This document shows positions 2,663 through 10,390 of a stretch of 64,000 nucleotides of DNA, piece after piece. This stretch comes from Nitrosopumilus sp. (lineage in GTDB: Archaea; Thermoproteota; Nitrososphaeria; Nitrososphaerales; Nitrosopumilaceae). The notes under the pieces were generated by a model, which was not told the DNA's origin, did not search any database, and worked only from the letters and a program-made list of their open reading frames with translations. The stretch is taken from the NCBI GenBank assembly GCA_965205425.1, contig CBDBGZ010000009.1:480001-544000 (forward strand). Direction: 5' to 3'. Position 1 is the first letter of the stretch, and each line of letters starts with the position of its first letter. The position numbers were made by a program, and so were the translations under genes.

Positions 2663-3586
2663 TCATATCTTCTGATTCATTATTTGAAAGACATAAAGAG
2701 ATAGGCCTTGTAGAAACCATGATAAAATAACAAAATCTAATTTTCTAATCCTGTAAGCATTGTATGCAATTAACCTGTACAACATCTCATTGTCCTGAGT
2801 TGTAACATTTCTTGATGTGACATCTCCTGACATTATCTGTTTGATCACAAAAAAGATTGTTTCGGATTTGTTTCTCTGATGGTACAATTGTACAGGAAAG
2901 TTCCTCTTCATCTCCTTTCTATGAATTCCACTGGTTCTGTAAATTGGAACTGTTCCATATCGAGTTGGAATTATTGCAGCTGTGTTGATCTGTTCTGCAC
3001 CAACATGGTTATTCTCATCATCAAAACCCATGTCACCTAACACAATATCAACTGGAACAATATTGTTGGTTTTGTACAACAATGGCAGAAAATCAGGATT
3101 ATCATGTTGCATGTTGTGGTGTGTCATGACACAGCAAACAAGCTGTGTATTCATGTCAGCACAAACAACAACTTTTAGGAAATTCCTGCGTAACTGTACT
3201 CTTTTTGTATAATAGTATGATGCTGTACTGTAACTGAATCCGCTACCATCAATTCCAGCTAGAACCAGTCTGACTTTTTTGTACAAAATGAATTCCTGCA
3301 ACATTTTATGTAACAGATTTCCTTCCAGTCTTGCAGCTGCCTTTTGTAGTGTGGTGTAATGTGGAATGGTATACAAACCAAGATATTCCTGAATTCCTAC
3401 ACATTCTTCTAAAAATTCTGTAAATCTTCTATAACTCTTTGATTCGTACTGTCGTATTGTCAAGAGTATGAGATGTGTCCAAACAGAATAGATATGATTT
3501 GATTTTGGATGTAAGAACCTAGGAATTCTGCATCTGATGATTATATTGAGTAGTGTTTTGCACATTTTGACGTATGATGAGACCAT
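2663..3586 (-). CDS. IS5/IS4-superfamily DDE transposase (DDE_Tnp_1-like)
   Basis: Motifs PHYTTL, IDGSG, GDMGFD and the YREK-type signature Y-x2-R-x3-E-x6-K (YHQRNKSETIFFVIK). Confidence 0.9.
   Translation of the reverse strand: MVSSYVKMCKTLLNIIIRCRIPRFLHPKSNHIYSVWTHLILLTIRQYESKSYRRFTEFLEECVGIQEYLGLYTIPHYTTLQKAAARLEGNLLHKMLQEFILYKKVRLVLAGIDGSGFSYSTASYYYTKRVQLRRNFLKVVVCADMNTQLVCCVMTHHNMQHDNPDFLPLLYKTNNIVPVDIVLGDMGFDDENNHVGAEQINTAAIIPTRYGTVPIYRTSGIHRKEMKRNFPVQLYHQRNKSETIFFVIKQIMSGDVTSRNVTTQDNEMLYRLIAYNAYRIRKLDFVILSWFLQGLSLYVFQIMNQKI
2704..3584 (-). mobile_element. IS5-family-like insertion sequence (~880 bp)
   Basis: Contains a DDE transposase. One end is GGCCTTGTAGAAA at 2704. The termini are GG...CC, flanked by ATA (2701-2703 and 3585-3587). 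The second inverted repeat is weak, so the upper boundary is uncertain (alternative near 3685). Confidence 0.65.
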
Positions 3587-3738
3587 ACTGTAATCTGCAA
3601 ATACAATCCTAATGGATCTAAATTAGCTAAAATGTATCCATGTGAATTGTTTTTATACATTTCTTCTCTTTTCATACATCAGGGCATGGCTTTCGCTAGA
3701 GAATGGTTTCAATCAAAAGATGCGGACATGTATCCATA

Positions 3739-4932
3739 CGAGACTATTCTCTCAATGCTATCTTCATCCTAGTTAGGATTGTTCGCAGTTATCAGACGAG
3801 GCCTTGTCCCTCAAAAACTCTAACGCGACTTGCAGTCCTAACTATAATTTTGCACAAATTCTCTCCTCTCCTTTAGCATCCAATATATGACACGCAATAA
3901 CTTTGATGCACCAGCTACTGCAGCTTTGGATGATCCTCTTTTCTTTTTAATGCGATTGTAAAATTTTGTAATGTCGCTATCTGGTGCGTATCTAACATGT
4001 GCATGAATTGCCTCCACTAGCAACCATCTTAGCATGGTGCTTCCTCTCTTTGTAATTCTTCCGTGATGTATTGTATCTGCAGAATTTCTCACCGATGGAA
4101 CAATCCCTGCATATGCACATAACTTGCGAGAATTTGAAAATCTACTAATCTCTGCAATTTCTGAGAATATGCTCAATGCAGTGTATGGTCCAACTCCAGA
4201 TATTGATGTCAAAATACACACGTCAGGATTATCATTTACCATGCGACGTATCATGGAATCTATTTTTGCAACCTCCTTTTTGTGAAATTTTATGCTTTGT
4301 AGGTACGAATCTATTCTATAACTCTCCAATTTTCCAAGTGCACGTATGTGTTCTGAGGAAAATGGTGTTGCTTTGATATGGATTCCCTCCTGTAGTGTAA
4401 TACCATGTATGGAATTCTTCATCTTTACAATGATGCGCACAATCTTGTGTCGATGTCTTACAAGCTGTCTGTATTGCACAATTGTGTGATCTGGCACGAA
4501 TGATTCTGCAATGTATCCTCCTCGTAGCAAATTTGCAAGATGGTACGCATCAATTTTATCAGTCTTTTTGAGTGATGATGCTATTATCTTTGTGTTGTAT
4601 GGATTAGATAGTATAACATCAAGATGTAATTTGTCTGTCATGTGTCTGTACAATCCATACCAGACAGATGATGACTCTAAAACATATTTTGCGTTCTTTG
4701 GAATTTTGGATGTAATTTTGCTAATAGCAGAAAAATCACTGGAAATCTTTTTGTTAAATAATAATTTGCCAATCTCATCTACTGCTGCCACCTGTACAGA
4801 GTTCTTGTGAACATCCAATCCTACAAACATCAAATATTTTTTTTCAGGAAGGGTAGTGTGTTTGTTTGCATTTCTTACTTTCTTGATACGAATGCAAGTA
4901 CCATCTAATTTCCTAGCTGATTTTGGCACATA
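3739..4932 (-). mobile_element. IS110-family element (~1194 bp) bounded by a CATA core repeat
   Basis: CATA occurs at 3735-3738 and 4929-4932. No terminal inverted repeats. Excision restores the host reading frame. Confidence 0.75.
3838..4830 (-). CDS. IS110-family DEDD recombinase/transposase
   Basis: RuvC-like DEDD residues in GLDVHK, VLESS and KTDKIDA. Tnp-domain motifs SISGVGP, AYAGIVPSVRNSAD (catalytic Ser) and GRITKRG. The likely start is ATG at 4830 (MFVGLD), not the track's GTG at 4929. Confidence 0.93.
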   Translation of the reverse strand: MFVGLDVHKNSVQVAAVDEIGKLLFNKKISSDFSAISKITSKIPKNAKYVLESSSVWYGLYRHMTDKLHLDVILSNPYNTKIIASSLKKTDKIDAYHLANLLRGGYIAESFVPDHTIVQYRQLVRHRHKIVRIIVKMKNSIHGITLQEGIHIKATPFSSEHIRALGKLESYRIDSYLQSIKFHKKEVAKIDSMIRRMVNDNPDVCILTSISGVGPYTALSIFSEIAEISRFSNSRKLCAYAGIVPSVRNSADTIHHGRITKRGSTMLRWLLVEAIHAHVRYAPDSDITKFYNRIKKKRGSSKAAVAGASKLLRVIYWMLKERREFVQNYS

Positions 4933-5183
4933 TGGTTATGGTTATAGTTATCTTTATGTTGTAGGATGTGATGACATTGATTTTTCAAATCCAGATTCAA
5001 CGATTTGGATTTTTGAAATGAGTCAATGGAAAGCCGGTGCCATACCAAAAAACACTACGGACATTTATGGAGACAATACAGGTAAACAAAATAAATTTAT
5101 TGTTTATCGTGAATATATGGAAGAAATTAGTGTTGAAAAATTAAGAGATTTGGTTGATTCTCACTGGAAAGAGTTTGAATGAG

Positions 5184-8135: not shown

Positions 8136-10307
8136 TTAATTATCTGGGCAACCGTCTTCATCTTGGAAACCATCATAATCTTCAGGATCAAGTGGACATA
8201 GATCCTCATCATTGATAATATCGTCTAAATCATCATCGTGAACAAATCTCTGTTGTTCTGGAGCAGTGTCAGGGCAACCGTCATGATCATTGTATTTGTT
8301 CCAGGTTTCAGAGTTTGTTGGACAAGCATCAATAGCATCATAATATCCGTCACCGTCAGTATCAGGTCTTGTAGGAGTTGTAGACTCTGCTGCTAACACA
8401 TCTGGGCAACCATCCCAATCAAGATATCCATTAAAGTTCTCTTGTTCATCTAGACATACATCTTTTCTATCATCTATTCCATCACCGTCAATATCTGCAA
8501 ATAAGTAAGATGAGGCAACAGTGGTGGTAGAATCAGGACAACCGTCTTCATCTTGATAGAAATTATAAGTTTCAGGTTCTAATGGACATGCATCAGAGAT
8601 ATCAACAATTCCATCTTGATCAGAATCGGTTGTAAAAACTAGTTTATCTGGACAGCCATCTTTATCTTGGAAACCATTGAATGTTTCAGGTTGAGCAGGA
8701 CAAGAATCTGAAATATCAGGAATTCCATCACCGTCAGAATCTACTGTGAGTTTGTTATCAGGAATTAGATCTGGACAACCGTCAGAATCTAGATATCTAT
8801 TGTAAGTCTCCCTAGCATTTGGACATTGATCAACATTATCGGTAACACCATCAAAATCAGCATCACCAAATGAATCATATGCTAAAGTGTCTGGGCAACC
8901 ATCATCATCTTGGAAACCATTGTATCTTTCAGCTAGTGTAGGACATGAATCATATTCATCTGGGATGCTATCATAATCAGAGTCAGGTAAAGCAGATTTT
9001 GAAAATCCTGCAATGTCAGGACAACCGTCAGTATCTAAGAAATCGTTATAATTTTCTGGTTCATCAATACATTGATCCCATCTATCATCAATTCCGTCAC
9101 CATCAACATCTGGAAATACGTAAGAGGAAACAATAGAACCAGATGAATCGGGACAACCATCACCATCTTTAAAGAAATTATAAGTTTCAGGTTCTAACGG
9201 ACATGCATCAGAGATATTTAAAATTCCATCTTGATCAGAGTCTAAAAGAGAATCATAACTGTCTGGGCAACCATCAGAATCTTGGAATCCATTATACGTT
9301 TCTGGTTGGTTTGGACATAAATCTAGATTATCAACAATTCTGTCACCATCTGAATCATATGTAACAGAATTGTCTGCTACTAAATCAGGGCAACCATCAT
9401 CGTCTTGGAATAAATTGTAAGTTTCTTTGGAATAAGGACATACATCAAATTGATTTAAAATTCCATCACCGTCAGAATCACCAGTTATTGAAAATTCAAT
9501 TTCATCTGGACAGCCATCATCATCTTGGAATTTGTTAAAATTTTCACGTTCCAGCGGACAGGCATCTACAGAATCAAGAATACTATCATAATCAGAGTCA
9601 ATCAAGCCATCAGAATCTGCACCGAGTGTATCAGTACAACCGTCCCAATCTAAGAAACCATTATAATTTTCAGGCTCATTTAGACATTGATCCCATCTAT
9701 CATCAATTCCGTCACCGTCAGTATCAGGAAATACGTAAGATGAATCAACTGAATCAACATTATCAGGACAACCATCAGAATCTAAGTAAAAGTTGTAAGT
9801 TTCAGGTTCTAATGGACATGCATCTACAGAATCAGAAATTCCATCTTGATCATTGTCTCTCAATGTAGAATCATCATCAGGACAACCGTCTTTGTCATCA
9901 ATTCCATTGAATGTTTCTGGTTGGTTTGGACATAAATCCATGAAATCTGGATAACCGTCACCGTCAGTATCAGCAATTCCATCTGAACCTTCAGGGGATA
10001 AATCTGGACAACCATCATCATCTTGGAATTTATTGTAATTTTCTTTTACAGTTGGACAGTTATCTATATGATCTTGAATTCCATCATAATCAGCATCATA
10101 CCATGGGACAAAGTCTGCTGGACAACCATCTATGTTGTTACCATATTCTGAATCATAATCTTCTAAGAGATGAGGACAAAAATCAAGATTATTTGGAACT
10201 CCATCATTATCAGAGTCAATTTCCTCATTAGCAAATACACTACTTGGCATCATGCCAATAGTTGATGTTAGTAAAAGTAAAAATCCTAAAAGATATTGTT
10301 TTTTCAT
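8136..10307 (-). CDS. Secreted thrombospondin type-3 (TSP3) repeat Ca2+-binding protein 1
   Basis: Signal peptide MKKQYLLGFLLLL (start 10307, GGAG upstream) and ~17 units of DxDxDG...CP...E...N...DxDGCPD. Confidence 0.9.
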   Translation of the reverse strand: MKKQYLLGFLLLLTSTIGMMPSSVFANEEIDSDNDGVPNNLDFCPHLLEDYDSEYGNNIDGCPADFVPWYDADYDGIQDHIDNCPTVKENYNKFQDDDGCPDLSPEGSDGIADTDGDGYPDFMDLCPNQPETFNGIDDKDGCPDDDSTLRDNDQDGISDSVDACPLEPETYNFYLDSDGCPDNVDSVDSSYVFPDTDGDGIDDRWDQCLNEPENYNGFLDWDGCTDTLGADSDGLIDSDYDSILDSVDACPLERENFNKFQDDDGCPDEIEFSITGDSDGDGILNQFDVCPYSKETYNLFQDDDGCPDLVADNSVTYDSDGDRIVDNLDLCPNQPETYNGFQDSDGCPDSYDSLLDSDQDGILNISDACPLEPETYNFFKDGDGCPDSSGSIVSSYVFPDVDGDGIDDRWDQCIDEPENYNDFLDTDGCPDIAGFSKSALPDSDYDSIPDEYDSCPTLAERYNGFQDDDGCPDTLAYDSFGDADFDGVTDNVDQCPNARETYNRYLDSDGCPDLIPDNKLTVDSDGDGIPDISDSCPAQPETFNGFQDKDGCPDKLVFTTDSDQDGIVDISDACPLEPETYNFYQDEDGCPDSTTTVASSYLFADIDGDGIDDRKDVCLDEQENFNGYLDWDGCPDVLAAESTTPTRPDTDGDGYYDAIDACPTNSETWNKYNDHDGCPDTAPEQQRFVHDDDLDDIINDEDLCPLDPEDYDGFQDEDGCPDN

Positions 10308-10390
10308 TCTCTCTGACTCCGCTATTATCAAGTATTTATTAAGTCTCACGTTAAATAGATTCTTTTAAAATTAAAAACTAGCCAATCCGG

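What the first reader, a model, noticed from the sequence alone, without database searches (positions are those of the whole stretch)
3735..4932. Archaeal IS110 with recoverable target and donor junctions and two structured non-coding ends (candidate bridge/seek RNA system)
Seen: a CATA core flanks the element, and removing 3739-4932 restores a host frame and the target ...GTAT-CCATATGG-TTATG, which centres on the palindrome CCATATGG. The DEDD residues and catalytic Ser are intact. With the start at 4830 there is ~100 nt of non-coding DNA at each end. The upstream end has a TTGCATT...AATGCAA stem. The downstream end has GAGG/CCTC, ATCCT/AGGAT and GAGA/TCTC hairpins. Short, weak matches to the predicted circle junction (TCTCG-TATG-TGCC) occur in these ends: TCGTAT upstream and CTCGTCTG downstream. 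Known: IS110/IS1111 recombinases are guided by a non-coding-end RNA, usually from one long end. Inference: this is a compact archaeal RNA-guided recombinase whose guide is either unusually short or spans the circle junction.
Basis: partly seen in the sequence, partly recalled or inferred. Interest (0 to 1): 0.8.

Follow-up and report, generated by a model that had tools for sequence, protein, structure and literature searches.

The report
Archaeal RNA-guided transposon with swapped guide
This is a jumping gene of an ammonia-oxidising archaeon that very probably uses a known kind of guide RNA encoded behind its enzyme gene; its real ends differ from those first proposed, and it looks like a hybrid whose enzyme comes from a lineage that inserts into the ends of sister elements and has picked up a sister's guide.

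Summary
The IS110 recombinase is real and intact, but the proposed ends, CATA core, restored host frame and two-ended guide are wrong. Ten right ends and twelve left ends in the genome place the element at 3636-4950 with a one-base T core. The upstream '100 nt' is coding (GTG 4929, 363 aa). The 201-nt 3' end holds a complete two-loop bridge RNA (3842-3724). Across relatives its target arm tracks the flank (0 of 20000 permutations, also in a held-out set). No RNA or circle was observed. The scan reported a sister copy of this genome before. New here: (1) the enzyme's parent lineage sits in sister IS110 left ends in 13 of 13 copies, and this copy is a mosaic of that enzyme with a sister's RNA; (2) its flanks come from two different targets, and both fit another copy's guide; (3) the spacing of the two target halves varies by 0-2 nt; (4) a 7-nt echo of the donor guide inside the gene start covaries with it, function unproven.

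The parts
3636..4950 (-). Whole IS110-family element, including the core T at both ends (3636 and 4950)
   Evidence: 10 right ends and 12 left ends in G000; empty alleles for both junctions
3838..4929 (-). Recombinase ORF, 363 aa from GTG, with a 33-aa Lys/Arg-rich N-terminal extension; catalytic D39, E85, D124, D127, S283
   Evidence: the start codon is inferred from frame conservation
4932..4949 (-). Left terminal extension with two extra 6-bp units (ACYATA), read as scars of insertion into a sister left end and then into its own
   Evidence: the scar reading is inference
4927..4931 (-). Left sub-terminal inverted repeat ATGTG, containing the GTG start
4898..4904 (-). 'Echo' site: same-sense copy of the donor-loop 5' arm in non-chimeric relatives; mismatched to this copy's own donor loop (4 of 7)
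3772..3842 (-). Target-binding module of the predicted bridge RNA: outer stem, inner stem, internal loop, apical GAGG/CCTC hairpin
3813..3823 (-). Target guide, 5' arm (complementary to the right flank, top strand)
   Evidence: this copy's own arm scores only 4 of 7 on its own flank
3788..3796 (-). Target guide, 3' arm (same sense as left flank plus core), followed by bases matching the first bases of the left end (handshake-like)
   Evidence: handshake role by analogy with PMC11208158
3724..3769 (-). Donor-binding module: stem, 5' arm (3761-3755), GAGA/TCTC hairpin, 3' arm (3737-3729)
3689..3698 (-). Conserved small GNRA-type hairpin in the 3' trailer
   Evidence: visible in most of 35 distinct right ends; not tested by covariation
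3651..3657 (-). Conserved TATA-like box about 30 nt from the GTG once simple ends are joined; candidate junction promoter
   Evidence: position counts over 35 right ends; promoter role is inference from recalled archaeal promoter spacing
3640..3644 (-). Right sub-terminal inverted repeat CACAT, 3 bp inside the right end
2704..3635 (-). Right flank: IS5-family element that has lost about 40 bp of its left end at the junction
   Evidence: 25 intact IS5 left ends in G000 give the empty allele; NF033579 145 bits; one terminal repeat left at 2704
4951..5182 (+). Left flank: C-terminal part of an interrupted host gene; its N-terminal half lies at G000 C9:1143403-1144809
   Evidence: intact in 5 relatives L002-L005, L011

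Best explanation
A 1.3-kb IS110-family element with the IS1111-type layout. SHOWN by sequence comparison: the ends and T core; an intact DEDD/Ser recombinase; a conserved two-module RNA structure behind the gene whose four arms track the right flank, the left flank, the element's left end and its right end; a mosaic origin (enzyme and left end from a lineage whose own target loop spells out the left end of sister IS110s, RNA from such a sister); and flanks from two different targets. INFERRED: joining the ends places a TATA-like box upstream of the GTG, giving one transcript for enzyme and bridge RNA; enzyme plus RNA recombine the joined ends with a target at the T core, with 0-2 nt of slack between the two target halves. 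History: the parent inserted a few bases inside a sister's left end, making a tandem; recombination near the 3' ends of the two genes fused the parent enzyme to the sister RNA and left 6-bp scars. The junctions of this copy were chosen by the guide now found in three other copies, either before this copy's target loop was overwritten by gene conversion (more likely) or by that RNA acting in trans. A later exchange between copies or a one-ended transfer paired the two flanks.
For: Ends. Structure: 26 pairs, 99.4% of cells paired, 11 pairs with two-sided changes, 0 of 500 shuffles, slid controls 31-48%. Target 5' arm vs right flank, ends set by donor motifs: 30 guides/67 flanks, 5.43 vs 3.60 of 7, 0 of 20000; 6 clusters, 157 of 100000; held-out 17 guides/30 flanks, 5.07 vs 3.43, 0 of 20000. 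3' arm vs left flank: 12 guides/30 flanks, 2.86 vs 1.36 of 4, 0 of 20000. Donor 3' arm equals the right end in 71 of 74 rows. Sister targeting: 13 of 13 parent-type copies are followed by a sister's left-end remainder, with a filled/unfilled pair L015/L053. Mosaic breakpoints differ among copies. The other guide scores 7 of 7 on the right flank; 0.3% of random T sites do so for any of 7 guides; it scores 6 of 7 on the host-gene empty allele in 4 of 5 relatives and 5 of 7 in the fifth. In-trans action and one-ended transfer are shown for other IS110s.
Against: No RNA, circle or activity was observed. This copy's own guide fits its own flank no better than 25% of random sites. Several relatives also fit their flanks poorly (own scores 2-4 of 7 for 7 of 30 guides). 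Kin are not independent, and single linkage collapsed 23 of 30 guides into one cluster. The sub-terminal repeat is only 5 bp here and the left extension is 12 bp too long, so this copy may be unable to move. The structure tested was derived from the same alignment. The order of events (conversion vs trans; tandem first) is not proven.
Confidence: 0.85

Rival explanations
1. One reading: element 3739-4932 with a CATA core, two ~100-nt structured ends and a short or junction-spanning guide.
For: An open frame does remain after removal; the hairpins named exist.
Against: All sister copies extend about 100 nt further right and 17 nt further left; the open frame does not match the real host gene; the upstream stretch is coding.
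Confidence: 0.02
2. The bridge RNA is real, but the chimeric copies (this one included) are immobile by-products of host homologous recombination and never transposed as units.
For: Breakpoints differ from copy to copy; two elements share one right flank but carry different target loops and left flanks (G000 C9:87877 and L013); short inverted repeat; echo mismatched in the chimera.
Against: Two chimeras with the same mosaic pattern sit in different right flanks (G000 C5:229268 and C5:208450). All 4 sister-type enzymes in G000 are broken while 9 parent-type ORFs are intact. The donor arms of the chimera match its outer ends.
Confidence: 0.35
3. The right junction in IS5 was made by this copy's own RNA through a one-sided (half) match, and the 7-of-7 fit to another copy's guide is chance.
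For: The 3' arm, shared by both guides, fits the IS5 left half at 4 of 5 positions plus the core, and the three bases after the donor 3' arm match the flank; half-match insertion is reported for IS621.
Against: Chance of a 7-of-7 fit to any G000 guide is 0.3%, and the second junction's empty allele fits the same guide.
Confidence: 0.1
4. Only the target module works (seekRNA model); the donor module is a dispensable duplicate.
For: Short target-only seekRNAs support movement in IS1111 elements (PMC11187229); the donor 5' arm matches the left end at only 4-5 positions.
Against: The donor 3' arm follows the right end in 71 of 74 rows and the donor stems covary.
Confidence: 0.1

Closest known systems
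IS1111-group seekRNA/bridge elements (ISEc11, ISKpn4, ISPa11; PMC11187229, PMC11208160)
   Same: Long 3' non-coding end holding the guide; short left end; top-strand complement before bottom-strand match; 7-bp left and 3-bp right extensions outside the inverted repeats in non-chimeric relatives; natural reprogramming known (ISEc11/ISXne4).
   Different: Inverted repeat 5 bp here (7-8 bp in non-chimeric relatives) against 7-17 or 11-13 bp; simple internal donor loop instead of the multi-loop of many IS1111s; archaeal TATA-like box; several target guides on one >=95% identical enzyme within one genome.
IS621 bridge recombinase (PMC11208160, PMC11208158)
   Same: Two stem-internal loop-hairpin modules, four guide arms, handshake-like bases, DEDD plus Ser; profile hit E 7e-19.
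   Different: RNA downstream and read against the opposite strand; shared core is one base rather than CT; target half-site spacing varies 0-2 nt; donor 5' arm mirrored by an internal echo, which I did not see described in the passages read.
IS4321/IS5075, IS1111 elements that target Tn21 terminal repeats (seen only as a reference title)
   Same: An RNA-guided IS aimed at the end of another mobile element.
   Different: Here the target is the left end of a sister IS110 that uses the same kind of RNA, so insertion sets up exchange of guide RNAs.
ISPpu9 with ssr9 (PMC12288879)
   Same: Tandem IS110 modules with nested ends that can combine in different ways.
   Different: There the second module is an RNA-only unit; here two enzyme-coding elements are joined by guide-directed insertion and then fused.

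Membership tests
IS110 family | DEDD RuvC-like domain plus Transposase_20 domain with catalytic Ser | tested here: met
   PF01548, PF02371, NF033542 above cut-off; residues aligned to IS621
IS110 family | Conservative insertion at a short core, no target duplication beyond it | tested here: met
   Empty alleles: 25 IS5 ends, host gene in 5 relatives, L053/L015, 130 empty repeat sites in G031
IS110 family | Circular intermediate with a junction promoter | tested here: inconclusive
   TATA-like box at fixed distance in 35 right ends; assembled contigs of 4 runs cannot show rare circles
Bridge RNA system | Conserved two-module structure with internal loops | tested here: met
   model hits in 28 of 151 genus genomes and 22 of 151 class genomes
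Bridge RNA system | Target-loop arms covary with both flanks | tested here: met
   for the clade; not met by this copy's own 5' arm (4 of 7)
Bridge RNA system | Donor-loop arms covary with both element ends | tested here: met
   3' arm 71 of 74 rows; 5' arm ATGG with ACCAT 10 of 10 and ATAG with CTAT 29 of 29 simple left ends; only two main states, so few independent events
Bridge RNA system | RNA is expressed, binds the enzyme and is required | not testable with these tools
   No RNA run was available
IS1111 group | Long non-coding end downstream of the gene, short left end | tested here: met
   201 nt downstream, about 20 nt upstream
IS1111 group | Sub-terminal inverted repeats of 7-17 bp (11-13 bp in PMC11187229) | tested here: not met
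   5 bp in this chimeric copy; 7-8-bp stems in most non-chimeric relatives. Filed therefore as IS1111-like in layout, not as a member
IS1111 group | 7-bp left and 3-bp right terminal extensions | tested here: inconclusive
   Right 3 bp met; left 7 bp in simple relatives but 19 bp here
IS1111 group | Top-strand complement precedes bottom-strand match in the target loop | tested here: met
   against the rule in PMC11187229
IS1111 group | Transposase groups with IS1111 in a tree | not tested
   No named reference set at hand; nearest annotated plasmid proteins are mostly haloarchaeal IS110s at 32-36%

The most novel reading that the evidence does not exclude
Two unreported layers in an archaeal bridge-recombinase clade. 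(1) Guide piracy: one lineage aims its target loop at the left end of sister IS110s, and the resulting tandems collapse into active hybrids, so one enzyme collects new target guides. (2) Non-contiguous donor reading: the donor loop's 5' arm pairs not (only) with the element's terminus but with an internal echo site 19-37 nt inside the gene, on the same strand that the 3' arm reads. That would let the RNA hold a single-stranded circle by both arms, or let the complex sit on its own gene start and repress it. My odds: sister targeting real about 0.9; hybrids mobile about 0.6; echo a functional partner of the donor loop about 0.5; the single-strand mechanism specifically about 0.2. The probability given is for active hybrids together with a functional echo.
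Probability: 0.3. Interest if true: 0.8.

Novelty: new variant of a known kind. Interest (0 to 1): 0.55.

Why it matters
The mechanism class is known, and 662 archaeal IS110 enzymes were already catalogued; I found no paper on a Nitrosopumilus bridge RNA. The value is in the natural experiments. One >=95% identical enzyme occurs with four to five target guides in one genome, which shows how guides are swapped in nature. Tolerance of 0-2 nt between target halves and a one-base core bear on specificity rules for bridge editing. The echo gives a direct test of whether the donor loop reads a single strand, an open point raised by two recent preprints.

Tried and rejected
Single-sequence folding of both ends: not better than shuffles. 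Rfam: only two sub-threshold chance hits. Sequencing runs: no RNA holder listed; contigs of 4 runs showed no joints, which says nothing on circles. Single-sequence AlphaFold of the 363-aa form: pLDDT 33, unusable, not followed up. Fold-back of the echo onto the left terminus in a single-stranded junction: rejected, pairing probability below 0.02 on both strands in 15 of 16 cases folded (0.15 and 0.05 in one); the inverted-repeat hairpin wins. The RNA model found nothing in three distant relatives from Haloferax, Sphingobium and Halanaeroarchaeum, so the echo was not tested outside this clade. The reciprocal product of the window's junctions (IS5 tip joined to a left end; the missing ~90 nt of the host gene) was not found in G000; the assembly has 9 contigs. 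A two- or three-base core (TA, ATA, TAA) fits G000 alone but not the clade. Literature searches for sister-end targeting, chimeric bridge RNAs or a donor-arm echo returned no such report in the listings; most subscription papers and all preprint supplements were out of reach.

Full report
OBSERVATION. The window is G000:C9:480001-544000. The closest named relatives of the enzyme are Nitrosopumilus MAGs at 91-98%. The minus-strand ORF ending at 3838 is an IS110 recombinase (PF01548, PF02371, NF033542 at 241 bits). The four acidic residues and the serine align with IS621 and are invariant in 9 homologues. Copies in the same genome with unrelated flanks stay alike from about 3635 to 4945-4951. 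All 10 right ends of this type stop at the same motif, CACATGGAT, and 12 left ends carry TAACCATATGTG, 10 of them behind a further TAACYA. That explains the error. Removing 3739-4932 leaves an open frame, but it is not the gene's N-terminus as seen in 5 relatives.

LEFT END. The GTG inside the left inverted repeat (4929) is in frame with the catalytic motif in 33 of 36 distinct left ends and stop-free in 32 of 36, although the lengths differ. The enzyme is therefore most likely 363 aa with a basic N-terminal extension, and the left non-coding end is about 20 nt. The TTGCATT stem lies in coding sequence, and the region folds like its shuffles.

THE RNA. The 201-nt right end folds unremarkably on its own (z -1.05). 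An alignment of 31 distinct relatives gives two modules, each stem, internal loop, hairpin: 99.4% of cells pair, 11 of 26 pairs change on both sides, 0 of 500 shuffles reach this, and slid registers pair 31-48% (the structure came from the same alignment). A model built from it hits 28 of 151 genomes of the genus and 22 of 151 of the class; Rfam has no matching family. For the guide test, ends were set by donor motifs, not by the guides: 90 non-coding ends parsed, 77 with a right end and 57 with a left end; ends that did not parse were left out. The 5' target arm matched the right flank at 5.43 of 7 against 3.60 for permuted pairings (30 guides, 67 flanks, 0 of 20000; best of three offsets in both). 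After collapsing to 6 clusters the figure was 157 of 100000, with 23 guides in one cluster. The 3' arm matched the left flank at 2.86 of 4 against 1.36 (12 guides, 30 flanks, 0 of 20000). A held-out set (17 guides, 30 flanks from loci fetched or parsed later; some loci again failed to parse) gave 5.07 against 3.43, 0 of 20000. Seven of the 30 guides fit their own flanks at 4 of 7 or less. The donor 3' arm equals the right end in 71 of 74 rows, and the donor 5' arm follows the left end in 39 of 39 simple ends, with only two main states. The bases after each 3' arm often match the first bases across the opposite junction, as the handshake guides of IS621 do (PMC11208158, passages; by eye here, not tested). 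A TATA-like box sits at a fixed distance from the right end in 35 distinct ends; archaeal promoter spacing, recalled and not from a call, would put the start site near the GTG once simple ends are joined.

CORE AND SPACING. Across the clade only a T is shared by both junctions and the empty site. The distance between the two target halves varies by 0-2 nt. In G031 the empty repeat target occurs 130 times, and the listed places show all three spacings, so the junction variants there can be conservative insertions into differently spaced sites.

THIS COPY IS A MOSAIC. Its left end and most of its gene are 93-100% identical per 60-column bin to copies whose own 3' end is different ('parent type'). 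A tract near 3946-3911 and the 3' end from about 3871 come from a sister element whose enzyme is only about 60% identical. Breakpoints differ among the six G000 chimeras. The parent-type target loop spells the left end of sister IS110s. All 13 parent-type copies examined (3 in G000, 10 named loci in two other genomes) are followed directly by a sister's left-end remainder and reading frame, and L053/L015 show one site with and without the insertion. The same loop pattern was found in 3 of 151 genus genomes (not counted in addition). The extra 6-bp units at 4949-4938 are what one insertion into a sister end and one into an own end would leave (inference). In G000, 9 parent-type ORFs are full length, all 4 sister-type ORFs are broken, and the 9 carry four to five different target guides.

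ITS FLANKS. The right flank is an IS5 element cut at its left end; 25 intact IS5 ends give the empty allele. The left flank is the C-terminal part of a host gene whose N-terminal half lies about 660 kb away. The two flanks are thus not one target. This copy's guide scores 4 of 7 on its right flank, as 25% of random sites do. The guide of three other copies scores 7 of 7 (0.3% of random sites for any of 7 guides) and 5-6 of 7 on the host-gene empty allele in 5 relatives. Gene conversion of the loop after insertion is the simplest reading, because G000 C9:87877 and L013 share a right flank but not a guide. Action in trans (shown for IS621; PMC11208160, passages) and one-ended transfer (10.1101/2025.10.25.684509, abstract and section 8) are alternatives.

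THE ECHO. Inside the gene start, 19-37 nt after the left inverted repeat, lies a same-sense copy of the donor 5' arm. It is identical over 7 nt in 19 of 23 distinct non-chimeric left-end/RNA pairs (24 with the chimera, which is mismatched). Private states are mirrored in L039, L045, L055, L205, L208, L238 and L232, including positions where the arm does not match the true terminus. Against: it is not mirrored in L057, L021, L206, L276, L233, L237 and L279, is 6 of 7 in L048, and a 5-of-7 echo occurs in several G154 copies beside a perfect one. Fold-back onto the terminus is not favoured. What remains is pairing of the donor arm with the strand complementary to the echo, which is the strand that the 3' arm reads, either on a single-stranded circle (single-strand excision is reported for IS621: 10.64898/2026.08.31.748434, abstract and section 8) or as autoregulation; a shared antisense partner as in ISPpu9 (PMC12288879, passages) is also open. 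None of these is shown.

COMPARISON. It works like a bridge recombinase and is an IS110-family member. The layout is IS1111-like (PMC11208160 section 12; PMC11187229 passages and section 10), but the repeat-length criterion is not met in this copy and no tree was made, so it is not filed in that group. Natural reprogramming (ISEc11/ISXne4) and targeting of other elements' ends (IS4321, reference title only) are known. Other papers seen: PMC13626964 (abstract), PMC13343696 (passages), 10.1101/2024.06.21.599552 (passages). Searches listed no report of sister-end targeting with guide capture or of the echo; no supplements were read, and they may bear on archaeal entries. This scan reported a sister copy in this genome twice and, in other genomes, a related archaeal element aimed at MITE ends and an IS110 aimed at another IS110's RNA gene; those notes are unchecked.

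VERDICT. A real element with a strongly supported bridge RNA, at other coordinates than proposed; a new variant of a known kind. Interest 0.55, carried by the guide-swapping history, the flexible spacing and the unexplained echo.

Noticed in passing
window 2704-3635: IS5-family element (NF033579) with about 25 intact sister copies; this one lost its left terminal repeat to the IS110 junction and is probably immobile.
   Followed up: partly
G000 C5:229268 copy (L103): The reverse case: an IS5 sits in the IS110 left end, and another insertion splits its donor loop.
   Followed up: no
L200 and L045, right ends: The right end is joined directly to the 3' arm of an element's own target loop. The DNA for that arm is by design a half-target, so this may be self-targeting by half match.
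   Followed up: no
L039 right end; L237 and L238 flanks: Short direct duplications of the right end or of flank DNA (about 35-40 nt) next to the junction.
   Followed up: no
G031, loci L086-L095: A 130-copy repeat is the target of the L027 group; one such repeat has itself inserted into the donor loop of L047.
   Followed up: partly
window 4831-4929 (-): Lys/Arg-rich N-terminal extension of variable length with two conserved short motifs in all close relatives; likely missed by annotation that starts at the ATG at 4830.
   Followed up: partly
window 8136-10349 (-): 737-aa protein with a predicted signal region and many Asp-rich DxDxDG...DGCPD repeats, resembling thrombospondin type 3 repeats (recalled, not searched).
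   Followed up: no
G154 (L270-L275) and G268 (L260-L266): Target-loop arms and flanks are shuffled among copies, as in G000, so guide exchange looks common in these IS-rich genomes.
   Followed up: partly
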